DNA of 64,000 nt from positions 148,622 through 212,621 of the forward strand of contig CADASF010000005.1 in the NCBI GenBank assembly GCA_902790465.1, read 5' to 3'. Source of the DNA: an uncultured bacterium. Its GTDB lineage: Bacteria; Vulcanimicrobiota; CADAWZ01. This document shows, piece after piece, positions 1-54,781 of this stretch. The notes under the pieces were generated by a model. The model had not been told where the DNA came from, did not search any database, and saw nothing but the letters and a program-made list of their open reading frames with translations. How positions within the stretch are numbered: the stretch's first letter is position 1; every line of letters starts with the position of its first letter. The translations under genes were made by a program, and so were the position numbers.

Positions 1-250
1 CAGAAAAAATTATTGAAATCTTTCCTCCTTCAACAGGTTCACCATCAGAAGATTTTCGTAATGATAAGACCAAATTTAAATTAGAACCTTCATAGACGAA
101 GTTTGGAGCAAAAATAAATCCCTGTAGATTTCCTATAAAATAATTTGAAAAAGAAATCCATAGAGTTATTATTACAAATATTGATATTGTTGTTGCCAAT
201 ATTATTTTAAGTAAATTTTTCTTTTTTCCAGCTTGAAAAAATAAGTGCAT
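1..250 (-). CDS. Partial CDS (N-terminal part; continues beyond the window start); hypothetical membrane protein
   Basis: The reverse strand reads ATG at 250..248 followed by MHLFFQAGKKKNLLKIILATTISIFVIITLWISF..., open to position 1. It has one hydrophobic helix, is truncated by the window edge and is not in the ORF track. Confidence 0.35.
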   Translation of the reverse strand, partial: MHLFFQAGKKKNLLKIILATTISIFVIITLWISFSNYFIGNLQGFIFAPNFVYEGSNLNLVLSLRKSSDGEPVEGGKISIIFS

Positions 251-35389: not shown

Positions 35390-36487
35390 TTAGAATAATT
35401 CCATTTGTTGAGATTGTTCTTCTATGTCTCTTTCCATAAGATTTAAATCTAAATCATTGATTTCTGAAAAATGTTCATATAGGTCTCTTGCTATATTTTC
35501 TTCATCAGTACCGATTTTAATATCTAAAATTTCTTTCAATATAGAAGCTGAATCTTCTGGAGTCAATGGCTTAAAAGAAGTTGTTCCCCAATTATTTTTT
35601 GTCTTTCCTGTTTGAGTATGGTGATTCCAAAATTTAATTTTTACTGCTTCAGATTTTTTTAATTCAATTCTGTATTTTTCATCAGCAACTATAAATTCAG
35701 ATTCTCCATCTTTTAAAGTTCCTGCTGTCATGAACACTGCAAATACAAACCTATCTTTTTCATCTGTGCTTTTGAATTTTGTAGTCAAGATTACAAGGCT
35801 ATCCTGTAAAATTCCAGCAAGTTTGGATGAATCAATTTTTATTCTCCAATTTTTGAGCAAGTCTTTTTCATTACATATAAACATGTTTGAATCGACGATT
35901 TTTTTGAAATCTTCTTCTTGTATTTCTCCAAATAAAAATTTTTTACATACACATTCAGGAGAGTTACAAATTTTATTATTTCTCTGTTTATTTACATTGT
36001 AATCCATCTGTGATGGGCTACATATTCCACAATATCCCATATTGTCATCAAATTGACCACCATCACAGTAATTAAATTTGATAGCCAAATTTTTTATAGA
36101 ACCTTTTGAACGGCTTTTGGTTTGTTTAGAAACAGTTTTTGTTTCAGTATTTTCAACTACAACATTTTCTTGGGTGGATGTCTTAGTTGCTTCAAGAAGT
36201 TTTGTTGAAGTCTTTTGGGGTTCTATTGGTTGAGAAACATATTGGATCTCTTTTTTCTTTTTAGCTTCAAGAAGCATTTGAGCCTTTTCATGAAGAGCTT
36301 CAATGTCTGCTTTTATTTTTTCTTTAGCTTCTTTGTCTTCTATTGTGAGGAATTTTTCAAATACACTTGGATAAGAAAAAATTTTTTCTTCTTGTCCAAA
36401 AATTACATGTAGATATTTTTCATCACAGCTTTTTATAATTCCCTCGCCAAATACCTTATGGTTAACTTTCTTATCTACTAAACACAC
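35390..36487 (-). CDS. Hypothetical protein with central Cys-rich segment
   Basis: Long ORF with no known motifs. It contains Cys clusters (CDGG...CGIC...CNSPECVC). Confidence 0.45.
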   Translation of the reverse strand: MCLVDKKVNHKVFGEGIIKSCDEKYLHVIFGQEEKIFSYPSVFEKFLTIEDKEAKEKIKADIEALHEKAQMLLEAKKKKEIQYVSQPIEPQKTSTKLLEATKTSTQENVVVENTETKTVSKQTKSRSKGSIKNLAIKFNYCDGGQFDDNMGYCGICSPSQMDYNVNKQRNNKICNSPECVCKKFLFGEIQEEDFKKIVDSNMFICNEKDLLKNWRIKIDSSKLAGILQDSLVILTTKFKSTDEKDRFVFAVFMTAGTLKDGESEFIVADEKYRIELKKSEAVKIKFWNHHTQTGKTKNNWGTTSFKPLTPEDSASILKEILDIKIGTDEENIARDLYEHFSEINDLDLNLMERDIEEQSQQMELF

Positions 36488-41043: not shown

Positions 41044-41103
41044 CCTGTAAGAAAGGGAAAATTTTGTAAAATAAGAAATAATATATAAAAAAATAAAAAA
41101 CAT
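41044..41103 (+). repeat. Duplicated ~55-nt upstream segment (copy 1) ahead of paralog gene 41210
   Basis: GAAAGGGAAAATTTTGTAAAATAAGAAATAATATATAAAAAAATAAAAAACATG is repeated at 42817..42870. Confidence 0.85.
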
Positions 41104-41209
41104 GGGGCTGTGAAAAAAGTATTTTTTTATATAATTTTAGTAAATTAACTCGTTGTGCTAGTTATTTTTATTTATTACTTATTAAAATGATATAGCTGAG
41201 TAGAGACAT

Positions 41210-41910: not shown

Positions 41911-42237
41911 CTACAGTTGTGCCAAATAAAATTCGTGTTTCTCTTGTGGAATTTTTAAAGCATTCATTGCATTTTCTGCAGTTATATTCATAGTCTCCAT
42001 TAACGATCTTATGTTATTGATAACAGCCTCTGCCATTCCTTCAAATTTTCCCTGTTTCTGTGCTTGTTTAGCTTGCGTTTCCGCTTGTTTTCTTGCTTTT
42101 TCTTCAGCTTTCTGTGCTTGTTTAGCTTGCTTTTCGGCTTCTTTTCTTGCTTTCTCGATTTCTCTTATTTTAGCTTCTGCTTCTTTCATTGCTTCTTCTT
42201 TAGCTTTTTGTATTTCTTTCTCAAAAAAGTCGAGCAT
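41911..42237 (-). CDS. Small Lys/Glu/Ala/Gln-rich coiled-coil protein with internal tandem repeat
   Basis: The start was reassigned to MLDFFEKEIQ, which has an AAGGAGGG RBS (reverse strand). It contains a repeated KQAETQAKQAQK unit encoded by a ~45-nt tandem DNA repeat. Confidence 0.4.
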   Translation of the reverse strand: MLDFFEKEIQKAKEEAMKEAEAKIREIEKARKEAEKQAKQAQKAEEKARKQAETQAKQAQKQGKFEGMAEAVINNIRSLMETMNITAENAMNALKIPQEKHEFYLAQL

Positions 42238-42502
42238 AAATGTTTCTCCCTCCTTTGTTTCTTTTAAATATTTTACAGGTTCTCTCAATTCGCTCTTTCA
42301 AGTTCTGCTCCTGCACAAACTCTTCCTTTAATTATATGTGAATAAAGGTAAAGAATCAATAAAATTTATAATATTATTTCTAATAATTCAAAAGTCAAAA
42401 AATTGACTTGTGTTATGTAAATTTAACTCGTTGTGTTAGTTAATAAAAGTAAATAAAAATTTGCTCTAAACTATCCAATATATGCCTGTATACTGCCACT
42501 TT

Positions 42503-42672
42503 GTCATTGCGAGGCTTTAGCCGTGGCAATCTAAGCCTGTAAATTATAAATTTACTTAAAAATTGAGTCGATCGTCTGTATTTGGAATATTGTCCTCAAT
42601 CTACTTAATAAATTACTAAATTTAAATTAAGCGTTTGAGATTGCCACGGTCGCACAGCTCCCTCGCAATGAC
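42503..42672. other. Long-range inverted repeat / candidate structured ncRNA: two perfect 12-bp helices enclosing ~105 nt
   Basis: GTCATTGCGAGG (42503-14) pairs with CCTCGCAATGAC (42661-72). CCGTGGCAATCT (42521-32) pairs with AGATTGCCACGG (42638-49). A small internal loop lies between the helices and there is an AT-rich interior hairpin (ATTGAG...CTCAAT). No ORF lies inside. Confidence 0.4.
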
Positions 42673-42784
42673 ATCGCTTCTAAATAGTGGCTATTTTGGT
42701 TACGGAAATCAATTTTTGTTATTGATTTTGCTGTTAAATAATTTTCAAAAATACGATACAATGTTAATATTTTTTATTTTGTAG

Positions 42785-42870
42785 CTGTAAGCCAATGCGT
42801 GAACGATAACTTTTTAGAAAAGGGAAAATTTTGTAAAATAAGAAATAATATATAAAAAATAAAAAACATG
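42785..42870 (+). repeat. Duplicated upstream segment (copy 2, with a 26-nt insertion) ahead of paralog gene 42953
   Basis: CTGTAAG-[CCAATGCGTGAACGATAACTTTTTAG]-AAAAGGGAAAATTTTGTAAAATAAGAAATAATATATAAAAAATAAAAAACATG. Confidence 0.85.
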
Positions 42871-42940
42871 TTATGAGGTGTGTAAGTTATGAAATAACTT
42901 ACACACCTCATAACCCAGTTAATCTACCAAATTAACTGGG
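42870..42940 (+). promoter_or_regulatory. Two consecutive hairpins in the 5' leader of gene 42953: a perfect 21-bp-arm palindrome (42870-42914) and a 9-bp-arm hairpin (42915-42939) just upstream of the RBS
   Basis: GTTATGAGGTGTGTAAGTTAT-gaa-ATAACTTACACACCTCATAAC is followed by CCAGTTAAT-ctaccaa-ATTAACTGG. AGGAGA lies at 42943 and ATG at 42953. Confidence 0.6.
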
Positions 42941-42952
42941 TTAGGAGAGATC

Positions 42953-44059
42953 ATGACGAAGAAATTTTTATTTCTTACACTATGCCTTTTTATCCTCGGC
43001 ACATTCATTTCAGCCTGTGGCGGAAGTGGCAAAACAACTCCACCAGACAACTCTGCATATTACTATTTATTGGCTCAACAGAATAACAACAATCAGCAAG
43101 ATAATAATCAAGAACAAAATAATCAAGAACAAAATAATCAAGAACAAAATAACCAAGAACAAAATAATCAAGAACAAAATAACAACGAACAACAAGTCGA
43201 TCCAGCTTTGCCAAGTCTTGAAGTTAATCCAAAAGAAATTTATGTAGTGGTTGATGAGGAAGATAATATAGTAGTTACACTTGAAGGAAAAGTTGTAACA
43301 GAAGATGTTACTTACAAATCTGATGATGAATCGATCGCAACAGTTGATAAAGGAACAGTAAAGGGCTTAAGAGTTGGTACTACTAATATAACAGTATCTC
43401 TTGAAGGTGCAAACAGTGCAGTTTTTGAAGTAAATATTGTAGAAAATCCATTTAAAGAAGCCCAAAAAGGTGATGAAGTGGAATTTGGTCGTTATCCTCA
43501 GACCGCAGAAGGTGAAGTTCAACCTATAAAATGGCTTGTATTGTCAAGAGATGACGAAAATAAACAATTATTGGCAATTTCAGTTGATGGTCTTGATGCA
43601 CTTCGTTTTGATGATGATTCAGATGGTAGTACAACAAATGTTTGGGAAAAGAGTGTAATTCGTGGTTGGTTGAATGGCGATGGTTTTTATAATAGAGTTT
43701 TAGAAGATGAAACAGCAGTATTTACTGATGGTGAGAAAAGTTTAATAAAGCCAGTAGTTCTTGCAGATGTATATATGACAGAGCCAGATAATGTATTTTT
43801 GTTGAGTAAGAAAGAGGCAGAGGATTATTTTGCCGATGATTCTGCTCGAATGTGTAAAGCAACCGAATATGCAAAGGCAGATGGTGCTAGGATATCAACA
43901 TCTGGAAGTTATGCAGGTAATTGTTCTTGGTGGCTTCGTTCTCCTAGTCCTAATTTTACTAATCGTGTCTATTATGTTGTTGGTGATGGTGCTAATCTCT
44001 TCGACAATGTTGATAATACCAATAATTCAGTTCGGCCCGCTTTATGGATCAATCTTTAA
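42953..44059 (+). CDS. Lipoprotein with N/Q/E-rich linker, a bacterial Ig-like group 2 domain and a C-terminal uncharacterised conserved domain (paralog 2)
   Basis: It has a lipobox (FISACGGSG) and five (NNQEQ) repeats. A Big_2-like block (SIATVDKGTVKGLRVGTTNITV) is followed by a C-terminal FGRYPQ/KWLVLS/WWLRSPSPN/VRPALWINL domain. AGGAGA RBS. Confidence 0.6.
   Translation: MTKKFLFLTLCLFILGTFISACGGSGKTTPPDNSAYYYLLAQQNNNNQQDNNQEQNNQEQNNQEQNNQEQNNQEQNNNEQQVDPALPSLEVNPKEIYVVVDEEDNIVVTLEGKVVTEDVTYKSDDESIATVDKGTVKGLRVGTTNITVSLEGANSAVFEVNIVENPFKEAQKGDEVEFGRYPQTAEGEVQPIKWLVLSRDDENKQLLAISVDGLDALRFDDDSDGSTTNVWEKSVIRGWLNGDGFYNRVLEDETAVFTDGEKSLIKPVVLADVYMTEPDNVFLLSKKEAEDYFADDSARMCKATEYAKADGARISTSGSYAGNCSWWLRSPSPNFTNRVYYVVGDGANLFDNVDNTNNSVRPALWINL
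43104..43195 (+). repeat. Coding 15-nt tandem repeat (AATAATCAAGAACAA, about 5-6 copies) encoding (NNQEQ)n in the lipoprotein linker
   Basis: Direct reading of 43090-43200. Confidence 0.9.
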
Positions 44060-44761: not shown

Positions 44762-45212
44762 AATCTTAAACCTCCAAAAAAAATATTTATTTTCTTGTTT
44801 TTTATATCACTTAAAATTTCAATTAGTAAATAGGTTTAGTGAATAATTTATGCTCTATTTCACGATTGCAATAAATTAAATAATGATTTTTTTCACAAAT
44901 GTAATATTTAATAATTTTTATTATATTTTGATATATTTTTGAAATATTTATTAATAATTTTTCTGTAAATTCTATTTTTATTAAGTCAGAAATTAAACAA
45001 TTTGTCTGTGAAATAGAAATAATTATTTGATTACAGAATTAATTAAAAATAATGGATGATTCTCACAGAATGACAATAGATGCTCACAAAACAAAATATT
45101 TTTTTATTCCAAAAATTTATCAAGATATTTCTGGAAACATAAACAAAGGGGCAAGAAATAATAAATTGGTATGTAATCCAATGCGTGAAAGATGATAAAA
45201 AGACAACATAAA

Positions 45213-53984: not shown

Positions 53985-54059
53985 CGGGGTGTAGCGCAGC
54001 TTGGCTAGCGCATCTGGTTTGGGACCAGGGGGTCGGAGGTTCGAATCCTCTCACCCCGA
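53985..54059 (+). tRNA. tRNA-Pro (anticodon TGG)
   Basis: Hand fold: acceptor CGGGGTG/CACCCCG, anticodon loop TTTGGGA, T-loop TTCGAAT. Confidence 0.8.
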
Positions 54060-54086
54060 CTTCAGTCTTAAAAGCCTGGAATCAAT

Positions 54087-54163
<77 letters not shown>

Positions 54164-54170
54164 TTAAAAT

Positions 54171-54245
54171 GGTGAGTGTAGCTCAATTGGTTAGAGCGCT
54201 GGTCTGTGGAACCAGAGGCTGTGGGTTCAAGTCCCACCATTCACC
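54171..54245 (+). tRNA. tRNA-His (anticodon GTG) with G-1
   Basis: Hand fold: G-1 plus acceptor GTGAGTG/CATTCAC, anticodon loop CTGTGGA, T-loop TTCAAGT. Confidence 0.8.
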
Positions 54246-54273
54246 CTTGACAAAATAAATAAAGTTTTTACAT

Positions 54274-54347
54274 GGGTCGTTAGCTCAGTTGGCTAGAGCA
54301 CCTGACTTTTAATCAGGGTGTCACAGGTTCGAGTCCTGCACGACCTA
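54274..54347 (+). tRNA. tRNA-Lys (anticodon TTT)
   Basis: Hand fold: anticodon stem CCTGA/TCAGG, loop CTTTTAA, acceptor GGGTCGT/ACGACCT. Confidence 0.75.
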
Positions 54348-54362
54348 TTTTTTTTGATAAGA

Positions 54363-54435
54363 GGGTCTTTAGCTCAGTTGGTAGAGCACCTGACTCTTAA
54401 TCAGGGTGTCGAGAGTTCGAGCCTCTCAAGACCCA
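54363..54435 (+). tRNA. tRNA-Lys (anticodon CTT)
   Basis: Hand fold: anticodon loop CTCTTAA, acceptor GGGTCTT/AAGACCC. Confidence 0.8.
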
Positions 54436-54444
54436 TTCTCCTTA

Positions 54445-54526
54445 GGGCGAGTGGCGGAATTGGCAGACGCGCTAGACTTAGGATCTAGTGGCCTTGGTCG
54501 TGGGGGTTCAAGTCCCTTCTCGCCCA
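54445..54526 (+). tRNA. tRNA-Leu (anticodon TAG), long variable arm
   Basis: Hand fold: acceptor GGGCGAG/CTCGCCC, anticodon stem CTAGA/TCTAG, loop CTTAGGA. Length 82 nt. Confidence 0.75.
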
Positions 54527-54547
54527 TAGTCCTAAACAAAATAATTT

Positions 54548-54620
54548 GCGGAAGTAGCTCAGCGGCTAGAGCATCGCCTTGCCAAGGCGGGGGTCGAGGG
54601 TCCGAATCCCTTCTTCCGCT
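54548..54620 (+). tRNA. tRNA-Gly (anticodon GCC), copy 1 (T-loop TCCGAAT variant)
   Basis: Hand fold: acceptor GCGGAAG/CTTCCGC, anticodon loop TTGCCAA. Confidence 0.75.
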
Positions 54621-54684
54621 CTCATAAAGCCCCTAAATATAACTAAAATCTTTCTGATTTTTATCATAACCCCAATAGTTGGGG

Positions 54685-54757
54685 GAGGGGAATTGCGGAA
54701 GTAGCTCAGCGGCTAGAGCATCGCCTTGCCAAGGCGGGGGTCGAGGGTTCGAATCCC
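54685..54757 (+). tRNA. tRNA-Gly (anticodon GCC), copy 2
   Basis: It is identical to copy 1 except for the canonical T-loop TTCGAAT. Confidence 0.8.
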
Positions 54758-54781
54758 TTCTTCCGCTTTTTTTATTTCTCA

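What the first reader, a model, noticed from the sequence alone, without database searches (positions are those of the whole stretch)
42503..42672. About 170-nt element closed by two perfect 12-bp helices: candidate structured ncRNA (6S-like size) or MITE-like palindromic element
In a 620-bp ORF-free intergenic region, two 12-nt segments pair perfectly with partners ~150 nt away: GTCATTGCGAGG with CCTCGCAATGAC, and CCGTGGCAATCT with AGATTGCCACGG. A short internal loop separates them, and a further 6-bp pairing (GCCACT with AGTGGC) is possible. Together they enclose an AT-rich ~105-nt interior holding its own hairpin. Such long interrupted closing stems are typical of 6S RNA (~180-200 nt) and other structured RNAs. 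Alternatively, the pair of terminal inverted repeats could mark a non-autonomous mobile element. Nothing coding lies inside.
Basis: seen in the sequence. Interest (0 to 1): 0.6.

Follow-up and report, generated by a model that had tools for sequence, protein, structure and literature searches.

The report
Orphan pair of Ssn-type hairpin repeats
The "170-nt structured element" is two back-to-back inverted copies of a short hairpin DNA repeat found across many bacterial phyla. This repeat class is the known target of small GIY-YIG single-strand DNA nucleases (Ssn), so it is a DNA repeat of a recently described kind, not a 6S-like RNA gene.

Summary
TGTCATTGCGAGG (42502-42514) pairs perfectly with 42661-42673, and CCGTGGCAATCT (42521-42532) with 42638-42649.

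The two "helices" are the conserved 5' and 3' halves of one ~31-36-nt oriented hairpin unit: YGTC tag, ATTGC, GA, variable inner hairpin, GNR, GCAAT, C. The unit is present twice, tail to tail, with the left copy on the + strand and the right copy on the - strand.

Exact-pattern scans find this unit at far more sites than chance allows: at least 119 genome stretches against about 0.2 expected, spanning many bacterial phyla and IMG/VR viral contigs. It has the signature of CGTC-tagged REPs (Di Nocera 2013) and of Ssn-related motifs (Chenal 2025, Nat Commun). Those motifs are bound and nicked, as single-stranded DNA only, by ~95-aa GIY-YIG Ssn nucleases.

In my own test, such units were about 40-130 times denser within 150 nt of Ssn-like genes than beyond 600 nt. 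The pair plus its flanks (about 42465-42700) recurs at other loci in related rumen bacteria, where it often sits directly upstream of an Ssn-like gene. The window copy has no such gene, so it is an orphan.

There is no Rfam hit and no informative covariation for an RNA. This ATTGC subtype is missed by the published SRM search string (0 of 392 units). Verdict: a new variant of a known kind, of modest interest.

The parts
42502..42532 (+). Left repeat unit, with its sense strand on the + strand. Layout: T-GTC tag (42502-42505); helix 1 ATTGC (42506-42510) with GCAAT (42526-42530); internal loop GA (42511-12) opposite GTG (42523-25); inner hairpin GGC-TTTA-GCC (42513-42522); 3' C (42531) then T.
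   Evidence: Sequence. Local DNA fold. Same architecture as 382 distinct family members.
42638..42673 (-). Right repeat unit, with its sense strand on the - strand: TGTCATTGCGAGGGAGCTGTGCGACCGTGGCAATCT. It is the longer subtype, with GG/CC plus tandem G.A (GAGC-TGT-GCGA) in the inner hairpin. Its tail faces the tail of the left unit, making a tail-to-tail (TT) heterodimer.
   Evidence: Nearly identical units, including the flank, occur in L176, L256 and L258. The TT heterodimer is the commonest neighbouring arrangement in the family: 59 TT, 12 HH, 37 HT (HH = head-to-head, HT = head-to-tail); 54 of 59 TT pairs have unequal unit lengths.
42533..42637 (.). 105-nt AT-rich spacer between the two units. 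Conserved blocks: TTACTTAAAAATTGAGTCGATC (42554-42575) and AATAAATTACTAAATTTAAATTAAG (about 42608-42632). A sigma-70-like site lies on the - strand, TCGACT-17-TATAAT (42571..42543), pointing towards the left flank.
   Evidence: Alignments of 6-7 copies. Promoter-like scan. The promoter role is an inference only.
42465..42501 (.). Left flank, nearly invariant in 8 copies: CTCTAAACTATCCAATATATGCCTGTATACTGCCACTTT. In L256, L258 and L259 its reverse complement lies immediately 5' of the ATG of a ~97-aa GIY-YIG (Ssn-like) gene. It therefore corresponds to that gene's leader. It also holds GCCACT (42495-42500).
42674..42700 (.). Right flank, conserved among copies: TCGCTTCTAAATAGTGGCTATTTTGG, including AGTGGC (42686-42691). 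Similarity between copies ends at about 42700.
   Evidence: The outer 6-bp pairing is kept in only 82% of cells.
42420..42464 (.). Leftward extension shared only with the gene-less copies (L176, L256_C, L259 second copy): AATTTAACTCGTTGTGTTAGTTAAT...GTAAATAAAAATTTG. It contains the near-palindrome TTAACT-N9-AGTTAA, which also occurs at 41146-41165.

Best explanation
**What it is.** The region is a tail-to-tail doublet of two oriented hairpin DNA repeats. They are of the CGTC/TGTC-tagged REP type, also called Ssn-related motifs (SRM). The doublet sits inside a ~235-285-nt repeated module.
- They pair at long range only because the unit is present twice in opposite orientation.

**Shown here.**
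- Each unit has its own local fold: ATTGC/GCAAT, a GA/GNR internal loop, then a variable inner hairpin that covaries across the family.
- The unit is found across many phyla.
- Units of this tag-and-hairpin type cluster tightly around small GIY-YIG genes.
- Related rumen bacteria carry the same whole module directly upstream of such a gene.
- The copy in the window has no such gene within 64 kb, so it is an orphan.

**Inferred from the Neisseria SsnA/NTS work (PMC11893778).**
- When this DNA is single-stranded (replication, transformation, repair), the left unit folds on the + strand and the right unit on the - strand.
- A cognate Ssn-family nuclease encoded elsewhere in the genome binds each hairpin. 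Binding needs the C right after the palindrome.
- The nuclease nicks the ssDNA a few nucleotides 5' of the GTC tag.
- The likely consequence is local restriction or modulation of ssDNA recombination near a strain-variable surface-lipoprotein locus, or simple persistence as selfish repeat DNA.

**More speculative.** The spacer may carry the promoter and leader of the Ssn-like gene in the gene-linked copies. In orphan copies it would then read into whatever gene lies to the left.
For: **Family membership of both arms.**
- At least 120 viral contigs matched a 16-nt pattern.
My estimate of the chance expectation is about 0.2.
- Record titles include Dehalococcoidia and other Chloroflexi, Oscillospiraceae, Bacteroidota, Patescibacteria, Planctomycetes, Elusimicrobia and Proteobacteria.

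**Local hairpin.**
- In 382 distinct units, 36% of inner segments have at least 3 consecutive Watson-Crick pairs from their ends, against 1.8% after shuffling.
- There are 28 different 4-nt stem starts.
- A further 29% are the G(G)AG...GAC tandem-G.A class.

**Signature features** (compared with PMC3733652 and PMC11893778).
- Both arms have the TGTC tag, a stem starting AT, and a C after the palindrome.

**Linkage to GIY-YIG genes.**
- In 35 viral loci anchored on a GIY-YIG homologue, YGTC-AT...AT-C hairpins occur at 3.96/kb within 150 nt of the gene and 0.03-0.10/kb beyond 600 nt. Seven control tags gave 0-0.2/kb.
- An unbiased hairpin census near these genes puts GTC|AT as the top context.
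- Three further GIY-YIG families all have units within about 500 nt.

**Same module next to an Ssn-like gene.**
- Seen in L256, L258 and L259.
- That protein is 42% identical (E = 3e-26) to a gene flanked by canonical NTS, CGTCATTCCCGCGAAGGCGGGAATC.

**Dispersal.**
- Other-context copies in L176 (Candidatus Xenobia rumen MAG) and a decayed copy in L318.
- Metagenome contigs of this species repeatedly break inside the element, at window 42530, 42646 and 42688, as expected for a multi-copy repeat.

**Doublet arrangement.** The TT heterodimer is the commonest neighbouring arrangement in the family.
Against: - No Ssn/GIY-YIG homologue lies in the 64-kb window. The best tblastn hit has E = 0.019, on the opposite strand inside another gene. 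The cognate enzyme is therefore assumed, not seen.
- Only this one pair occurs in 64 kb, so this genome is not repeat-rich.
- The units do not match the published degenerate SRM search string: 0 of 392.
- No Ssn enzyme has been tested on an ATTGC-type unit.
- The 105-nt spacer is long for the family: median 26 nt, and 3 of 59 are 80 nt or more.
- The local hairpins of the two window units are weak on their own: -4.5 and -5.4 kcal/mol as DNA, with z not significant.
- The strong conservation of the 37-nt left flank in orphan copies is not explained by nuclease recognition alone.
Confidence: 0.72

Rival explanations
1. A non-autonomous mobile doublet (REPIN- or MITE-like). The two inverted units are the ends recognised by a trans-acting enzyme, either Ssn itself or another recombinase. 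The ~235-285-nt module transposes as a unit, carrying an outward-reading promoter.
For: - The module sits at unrelated loci in related genomes.
- A decayed copy exists in L318.
- GC-rich arms lie in a 31% GC genome.
- The TT doublet is the commonest neighbouring arrangement in the family.
- L176 and L318 copies are bracketed by a ~22-nt inverted motif.
- Genes bracketed by inverted units look like an insertion sequence, as the authors of PMC11893778 also note.
Against: - No target-site duplication or empty site was found. The one strain lacking it (L007) lost 1766 nt by recombination between 52-nt direct repeats, not by precise excision.
- Ssn has only been shown to cut ssDNA, not to transpose (PMC11893778).
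- All contigs of this species carry the element at the same place with 100% identity.
Confidence: 0.15
2. A structured non-coding RNA of about 170-200 nt (6S-like or a new family), closed by the two 12-bp helices.
For: - Very stable fold, z = -6.7.
- Conserved upstream flank with TATACT at 42489-42494, and a U-rich stretch after AGTGGC.
- One G-C to G-U change that keeps the outer helix on the + strand only (L176).
- Two both-sided changes in helix B in L318.
Against: - No Rfam match to 6S or any plausible family, even with an E-value cut-off of 10.
- The opposite strand folds equally well.
- The arms are invariant family-wide DNA repeat halves found in thousands of unrelated places.
- The 13-bp helix never varies, and the outer helix is paired in only 82% of cells.
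- 55-nt insertions sit inside what would be the closing stem region.
- The interior is the least conserved part.
- In relatives the sense direction of the linked gene is the opposite strand.
Confidence: 0.06
3. A cis-acting transcription element used by the host. The doublet and spacer act as a portable promoter and leader, or as a REP-like insulator, terminator or mRNA stabiliser for the flanking divergent genes, independent of any nuclease.
For: - A promoter-like site on the - strand in the conserved spacer points at the left gene.
- In L259 and L256_C, and in the gene-linked copies, a gene starts just beyond the left flank in that orientation.
- REPs are known to affect termination and mRNA stability (PMC3733652).
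Against: - In L176 nothing lies downstream in that orientation.
- The -10 region is not well conserved between copies.
- This does not explain the cross-phylum conservation of the tag and tail.
Confidence: 0.05
4. An invertible promoter switch (inverton): the 12-bp inverted repeats are recombination sites, and the 105-nt interior flips to drive either the left gene or the lipoprotein gene.
For: - Inverted repeats flank a promoter-like segment between divergent genes, one of which encodes a surface lipoprotein.
- Contigs break inside the arms in several samples.
Against: - All 10 contigs that span the element, and all 6 paralogous copies, have the interior in the same orientation relative to the two distinguishable arms.
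- The arms are explained by a repeat family.
- No recombinase gene appears among the eight neighbouring proteins scanned, which include the four between the GlgB and PUFA-synthase genes.
- The contig breaks are explained by multi-copy repeats.
Confidence: 0.02

Closest known systems
Ssn-related motifs (SRM) / Neisseria NTS with Ssn (SsnA) GIY-YIG ssDNA nucleases (Chenal et al. 2025, Nat Commun 16:2388; PMC11893778)
   Same: - An oriented hairpin repeat with a 5' H-GTC tag, a palindrome starting AT, and a C right after the palindrome.
- Units flank ~95-aa single-domain GIY-YIG genes.
- Units are often on both sides of the gene in inverted orientation, and mostly intergenic.
- In Neisseria they cluster near surface-protein genes. 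Here the unit pair lies next to a strain-variable lipoprotein locus.
   Different: - The stem is ATTGC/GCAAT (5 bp), followed by a GA/GNR internal loop and a variable-length inner hairpin, not one continuous ~8-bp stem.
- None of 392 units matches the published degenerate search string.
- The window copy has no ssn gene nearby.
- No enzyme has been tested on this subtype.
- Tail-to-tail doublets are the most frequent adjacent arrangement.
CGTC-tagged REPs (Di Nocera, De Gregorio & Rocco 2013, BMC Genomics 14:522; PMC3733652), including Neisseria dRS3 and Rickettsia RPE-4/-6
   Same: - CGTC or TGTC unpaired tag.
- Stems begin with complementary A-T residues.
- A short unpaired tail beginning with C.
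- Frequent dimers.
- Distribution across phyla.
- No transposase linked.
   Different: - The published families have 8-9-bp stems, 4-5-nt loops, mostly head-to-head dimers and a CCA tail.
- Here the helix is interrupted, loops vary from about 3 to more than 40 nt, dimers are tail-to-tail, and tails are CT/CC.
- The string ATTGCGAG is absent from the paper's text and from its supplements held here.
REPINs / BIMEs with RAYT transposases (Bertels & Rainey 2011, PMC3116915; Nunvar 2010, PMC2817692)
   Same: [quoted passage not shown] The doublets are dispersed in intergenic DNA and have a single-copy partner gene flanked by the units.
   Different: - The tag is GTAG there, not YGTC.
- The partner there is an HUH/Y1 transposase (IS200/IS605-like), not a GIY-YIG nuclease.
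- No RAYT was sought or seen here.
6S RNA (Rfam RF00013)
   Same: Similar length, and a long interrupted closing stem in the predicted fold.
   Different: No covariance-model match. There is no conserved central bubble architecture. The stems are DNA-repeat halves.

Membership tests
Ssn-related motif (SRM/NTS) | 5' unpaired H-GTC tag directly followed by a palindrome beginning W-Y (AT). This tag is critical for cleavage in Neisseria. | tested here: met
   Both arms read T-GTC-AT... on their sense strand. In 382 units the base before GTC is T in 210 and C in 145.
Ssn-related motif (SRM/NTS) | A cytosine immediately 3' of the palindrome, the most important base for SsnA binding. | tested here: met
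   GCAAT-C in both arms, at 42531 and at 42639 on the - strand. The family-wide figure is not independent, because my search patterns required this C.
Ssn-related motif (SRM/NTS) | Match to the published degenerate search string HGTCWYN(0-2)YYVSBRHN(0-5)WNVSBRGN(0-2)RNCYNB. | tested here: not met
   The regex finds the NTS control but nothing in the window and 0 of 392 ATTGCGAG-type units. The string is a search aid built from 29 genomes, not a biochemical definition.
Ssn-related motif (SRM/NTS) | Physical association with a single-domain ~95-aa GIY-YIG (cd10448-type) gene. | tested here: inconclusive
   - Absent from the 64-kb window.
- Present next to homologous copies of the same module in L256, L258 and L259.
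- Strongly enriched family-wide.
- cd10448 assignment itself could not be run. Pfam gives PF01541. The protein is 42% identical to an NTS-flanked homologue.
Ssn-related motif (SRM/NTS) | Bound and cut only as ssDNA, on the sense strand, by the cognate Ssn. | not testable with these tools
   Needs purified enzyme and oligonucleotides.
CGTC-tagged REP (Di Nocera 2013) | CGTC/TGTC tag, a stem whose first two positions are complementary A-T, and a short unpaired tail. | tested here: met
   TGTC + AT...AT + CT, compared with the description.
CGTC-tagged REP (Di Nocera 2013) | Continuous 8-9-bp stem, 4-5-nt loop, and head-to-head dimers predominant. | tested here: not met
   The units have a 5-bp helix, then an internal loop and a variable inner hairpin. 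Neighbouring pairs are 59 TT against 12 HH. So this is not one of the four published families.
6S RNA and other Rfam families | Covariance-model score at or near the gathering threshold. | tested here: not met
   Only eukaryotic miRNA, snoRNA and bicoid models overlap the element, at 13-22 bits against thresholds of 90-195.
MITE | Terminal inverted repeats plus a target-site duplication, many dispersed copies, and a related autonomous transposon. | tested here: inconclusive
   Inverted arms and dispersed copies are present. No duplication was seen by eye at the flanks of the L176 copy, and no systematic search was made. The partner gene is a nuclease, not a known transposase.
Inverton (phase-variable promoter) | Both orientations of the segment present in populations, with a nearby or dedicated invertase. 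| tested here: not met
   Only one orientation is seen in the 10 contigs that span the element and in 6 paralogous copies. Reads were not available, so a minor flipped population cannot be excluded.

The most novel reading that the evidence does not exclude
The ~235-285-nt module (two inverted ATTGC-type units plus a conserved spacer and leader) is a REPIN-like mobile doublet. Its partner is a GIY-YIG Ssn nuclease rather than a RAYT. It carries an outward promoter, so orphan copies such as this one rewire expression of whatever gene they land beside. That would make Ssn/SRM systems a second, independent repeat-plus-domesticated-nuclease replicator class, spread over many more phyla (including candidate-phyla-radiation (CPR) bacteria, Chloroflexi and Firmicutes) than the published motif search reveals.
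Probability: 0.15. Interest if true: 0.7.

Novelty: new variant of a known kind. Interest (0 to 1): 0.38.

Why it matters
- It removes a false ncRNA candidate. It also shows a general trap: two inverted copies of a short conserved repeat look like a long "closing stem".
- The ATTGC-GA...GNR-GCAAT unit appears to be a very widespread subtype of the Ssn-related / CGTC-tagged repeats. It shows the same linkage to small GIY-YIG genes but escapes the published search string. Surveys based on that string therefore probably under-count Ssn/SRM systems in Chloroflexi, Patescibacteria, Firmicutes, Bacteroidota and rumen lineages.
- Each new unit-and-enzyme pair is a candidate sequence-specific ssDNA nuclease tool.
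- The tolerated variable-length inner hairpin suggests which parts of the motif the enzyme reads.
- For this genome, the element marks a strain-variable surface-lipoprotein locus. That parallels the clustering of NTS around surface-protein genes in Neisseria.

Tried and rejected
- **Rfam.** Gathering-threshold and permissive scans gave nothing relevant.
- **Full-text search for the sequence strings.** It returned only unrelated primer matches.
- **Other copies in the window.** Searches with up to 2 mismatches found only the two arms. A generic tag-and-hairpin detector found only background-level extras at 35727 and 45058.
- **Source organism.**
  - The genome scan did not return the source genome.
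  - Cluster names say only "[bacterium]".
  - The nearest labelled relative of the element is a Candidatus Xenobia rumen MAG (L176).
- **Orthologous-locus comparison through GlgB relatives (at least 90% identity).** Synteny is not kept, so presence or absence at the same site could not be scored.
- **Inverton idea, prompted by contig breaks.** Dropped because every copy has the same internal orientation, and the multi-copy nature explains the breaks.
- **Kink-turn reading of the GA/GNR loop.** Considered by eye and dropped: the bulged strand lacks the required G-A after a 3-nt bulge.
- **GIY-YIG in motif-anchored loci.** Only 5 of about 240 such loci have one. Most units are far from the gene, as with REPs and RAYTs. 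The informative test was the converse one.
- **Covariance model of the unit.** Prepared but not built, because the mismatch-tolerant and generic searches already answered the copy-number question.
- **NCBIfam.** It gave no family name for the GIY-YIG protein.

Full report
**1. Observation**

The sequence is as described.
- TGTCATTGCGAGG (42502-42514) is perfectly complementary to 42661-42673.
- CCGTGGCAATCT (42521-42532) is perfectly complementary to 42638-42649.
- GCCACT (42495-42500) can pair with AGTGGC (42686-42691).
- The interior is 105 nt and AT-rich.

This is not chance.
- A first-order Markov model of the window gives about 5 perfect 12-mer inverted pairs within 200 nt per 64 kb. Here two GC-rich pairs are nested in a 31% GC genome.
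- The 191-nt stretch folds far better than shuffles on both strands: z = -6.7 and -6.2 as RNA, and -6.1 as DNA.
- Symmetry between strands is the behaviour of a DNA inverted repeat.

**2. What the arms are**

Read 5' to 3' on their own strands, the two arms are the same kind of object.
- Left, + strand: T GTC ATTGC GA GGC-TTTA-GCC GTG GCAAT C T.
- Right, - strand: T GTC ATTGC GA GG-GAGC-TGT-GCGA-CC GTG GCAAT C T.

Collection scans show how common the unit is.
My estimate of the chance expectation is about 0.2.
- Record titles include Dehalococcoidia and other Chloroflexi, Oscillospiraceae, Bacteroidota, several Patescibacteria, Planctomycetes, Elusimicrobia, Armatimonadota, Atribacterota and Proteobacteria (alpha, gamma and "delta").

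Across 382 distinct units the segment between GCGA and GNR-GCAAT is a hairpin of changing sequence.
- 36% have at least 3 consecutive Watson-Crick pairs from the ends, against 1.8% after shuffling.
- There are 28 different 4-nt stem starts.
- Another 29% are the GGAG...GAC class with tandem G.A.

The unit therefore has its own local fold. The long-range pairing is a by-product of the inverted arrangement. Neighbouring units are mostly tail-to-tail heterodimers: 59 TT, 12 HH, 37 HT, with a median TT gap of 26 nt. The window pair is such a doublet with an unusually long 105-nt spacer.

**3. The element is larger than 170 nt and is dispersed**

- One genome hit, L176 (a rumen MAG labelled Candidatus Xenobia, 31% GC), carries a homologue of the whole region including its flanks. 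L176 4859-5202 corresponds to window 42416-42699, with 87% identity over 174 nt. The gene context is different.
- A metagenome scan with a 20-mer from the spacer found L256, which has three copies within 1 kb.
- Look-ups from the neighbouring gene gave L258 and L259, each with two copies.
- A relative with at least 90% identical GlgB has a decayed copy at another locus (L318).

Alignments put the conserved module at about 42465-42700, or from 42420 in gene-less copies.
- The 37 nt to the left of the left unit are almost invariant.
- The spacer is the most variable part.
- The loop of either unit tolerates a ~55-nt insertion (L176, L256_B, L318).

All other contigs of the window's own species are 100% identical over the element. 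Several end inside it, at 42530, 42646 and 42688. I attribute this to assembly breaks at a multi-copy repeat.

**4. Partner gene**

In L256, L258 and L259 the module alternates with a ~97-aa GIY-YIG gene (PF01541).
- Its ATG lies just beyond the module's left flank, on the window's minus strand.
- Homologues of this protein are very numerous and often sit on very short contigs.
- Three other homologue families all have YGTCAT-type hairpins within about 500 nt. These hairpins have several stem types: ATTGC/GCAAT, ATTAC/GTAAT, ATTCCCG/CGGGAAT and ATACCCG/CGGGTAT. They include tandem gene arrays with 233-nt spacers.

I ran a controlled test on 35 viral loci anchored on a GIY-YIG homologue.
- Hairpins of the form YGTC-AT(N3)...(N3')AT-C occur at 3.96/kb within 150 nt of the gene.
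- They occur at 0.03-0.10/kb beyond 600 nt.
- Seven control tags give 0-0.2/kb.
- An unbiased hairpin census ranks GTC|AT as the top context near the genes.
- Typical layouts are one unit about 50 nt upstream and an inverted one about 35 nt downstream, or a TT pair just upstream (L283, L286). The latter is the layout of the rumen module.

**5. Comparison with what is known**

The association is already published.
- Di Nocera et al. 2013 (PMC3733652) defined CGTC/TGTC-tagged REPs. Their stems start with A-T, they have a short tail, and they had no linked transposase. The class includes Neisseria dRS3 and Rickettsia RPE-4/-6.
- Chenal et al. 2025 (PMC11893778) showed that the oriented form of dRS3 (NTS, CGTCATTCCCGCGMAVGCGGGAATCYRG) and related "Ssn-related motifs" flank ssnA, a 94-aa single-domain GIY-YIG gene (cd10448).
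  - SsnA binds the hairpin only as ssDNA, on one strand.
  - It cuts a few nucleotides upstream.
  - The C after the palindrome is key for binding, and the three bases before it for cleavage.
  - The system restricts transformation in N. meningitidis.

The window's units share the tag, the AT start and the 3' C. The rumen GIY-YIG protein is 42% identical (E = 3e-26) to a homologue flanked by canonical NTS.

The differences are these.
- The stem is a 5-bp helix plus a GA/GNR internal loop plus a variable inner hairpin.
- The published degenerate search string matches none of 392 such units and nothing in the window.
- TT rather than HH dimers predominate.
- The string ATTGCGAG does not occur in the text of either paper, nor in the five held supplements of the 2013 paper; no supplements of the 2025 paper are held.

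I file the element as a new sequence and structure variant of this known class.

**6. The ncRNA reading**

- Rfam gives nothing.
- On 7 copies, the 13-bp helix never varies, which is uninformative.
- Helix B has two both-sided changes, both in one decayed copy. There both arms changed GTG to xCA. That is equally expected if both units follow one consensus.
- The outer 6-bp helix is paired in 82% of cells.
- Insertions in the unit loops, the poorly conserved interior and equal folding of both strands all argue against an RNA gene.
- It cannot be fully excluded without expression data.

**7. Mechanism**

Shown:
- the arms are family members;
- the unit folds locally;
- the unit is linked to Ssn-like genes, family-wide and in close relatives of this module;
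- this copy is an orphan, with no GIY-YIG gene in 64 kb.

Inferred:
- a cognate Ssn encoded elsewhere recognises the left unit on the + strand and the right unit on the - strand when the DNA is single-stranded, and nicks 5' of the tag;
- this affects recombination of incoming or replicating ssDNA around a variable surface-protein locus.

Speculative:
- the - strand TCGACT-17-TATAAT in the spacer is the promoter of the Ssn-like gene in gene-linked copies, and in orphan copies it reads into the left-hand gene.

**8. Local context**

- The element lies between a short gene on the - strand and a 368-aa lipoprotein gene with Big_2 and DUF6273 domains. The short gene is 108 aa here and 164 aa in other strains, because a 46-nt deletion in the window shifts the frame.
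- A 1766-nt segment holding the element and two genes is bracketed by 52-nt direct repeats (41053-41104 and 42819-42870). It is missing from one strain (L007).
- The locus is therefore strain-variable.

**9. Verdict**

The ncRNA interpretation is not supported. The "MITE-like" alternative is partly right. The best description is an orphan tail-to-tail doublet of Ssn-related / CGTC-tagged hairpin repeats of a previously uncatalogued ATTGC subtype. Interest is modest. The system was described in 2025, but the subtype's breadth and its escape from the published search motif deserve a note to people working on Ssn and REP elements.

Noticed in passing
window 42870-42947: Two adjacent strong hairpins lie in the leader of the 368-aa lipoprotein gene (ATG at 42953). 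One is a perfect 21-bp stem (42870-42890 with 42894-42914), and a 9-bp stem follows directly. An alternative 17-nt pairing, 42907-42923 with 42931-42947, would cover the AGGAG ribosome-binding site. The RNA fold is -43.4 kcal/mol with z = -8.9. On the - strand the first hairpin is followed by a T-run, so it looks like a terminator. It could be a translational control element or a bidirectional insulator.
   Followed up: partly
window 41053-41104 and 42819-42870: A 52-nt direct repeat brackets a 1766-nt segment holding the 199-aa DUF6273 gene, the 108-aa gene and the hairpin-repeat pair. Contig L007 has exactly one copy of the repeat and lacks the segment. This is a strain-level deletion or duplication by recombination between the upstream regions of two DUF6273 paralogues.
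   Followed up: partly
window about 42291 (compare L001 9293-9339): The window lacks 46 nt that all 14 other contigs of the species carry. In L003 the ORF here is 164 aa, so the window's 108-aa gene (41911-42237, - strand) is probably a frameshifted, 5'-shortened form.
   Followed up: partly
window 41146-41165 and 42424-42444; L176 4866-4890 and 5218-5245; L318 about 225-250: The near-palindromic motif TTAACTCGTTGTGYTAGTTA (TTAACT-N9-AGTTAA) recurs upstream of genes. In L176 and L318 it brackets the repeat module as an inverted pair. It may be an operator site or the terminal inverted repeat of a larger element.
   Followed up: no
L176 4968-5022; L256 about 195-250 (- strand copy B); L318 1-90: A homologous ~55-nt insertion sits inside the loop of one hairpin unit. 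It is the left unit in L176 and L318 and the right unit in L256_B, always in the same orientation relative to the unit. It has its own small hairpins (AAAACTC...GAGTTTT and CCCTCC..GGAGGG). In L256_B it is flanked by a direct GGGAGCGA. It could be a nested mini-insertion or a long-loop variant spread by recombination.
   Followed up: no
L271 2001-3340 (also L270, L272-L278): Rumen contigs carry tandem arrays of two or three GIY-YIG (Ssn-like) genes with a period of about 526 nt. Their 233-nt spacers are packed with YGTCAT hairpin units of several different stem types. The arrays sit next to AAA_21/RloB-like genes, which suggests a defence-island context.
   Followed up: no
window 45058-45074 (- strand): TGTCATTCTGTGAGAATC is a minimal tag-plus-5-bp-hairpin-plus-C sequence in the intergenic region downstream of the 2202-aa PUFA-synthase-like gene. 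Control tags show this is at background frequency, so it is probably chance.
   Followed up: partly
window 43103-43192: A coding tandem repeat, 15 nt x 6 (QEQNN), lies just after the lipoprotein signal peptide of the 368-aa protein. It is a likely length-variable linker.
   Followed up: no
window 53985-54767: A cluster of eight tRNA genes on the + strand: Pro, Arg, His, Lys x2, Leu, Gly x2.
   Followed up: no
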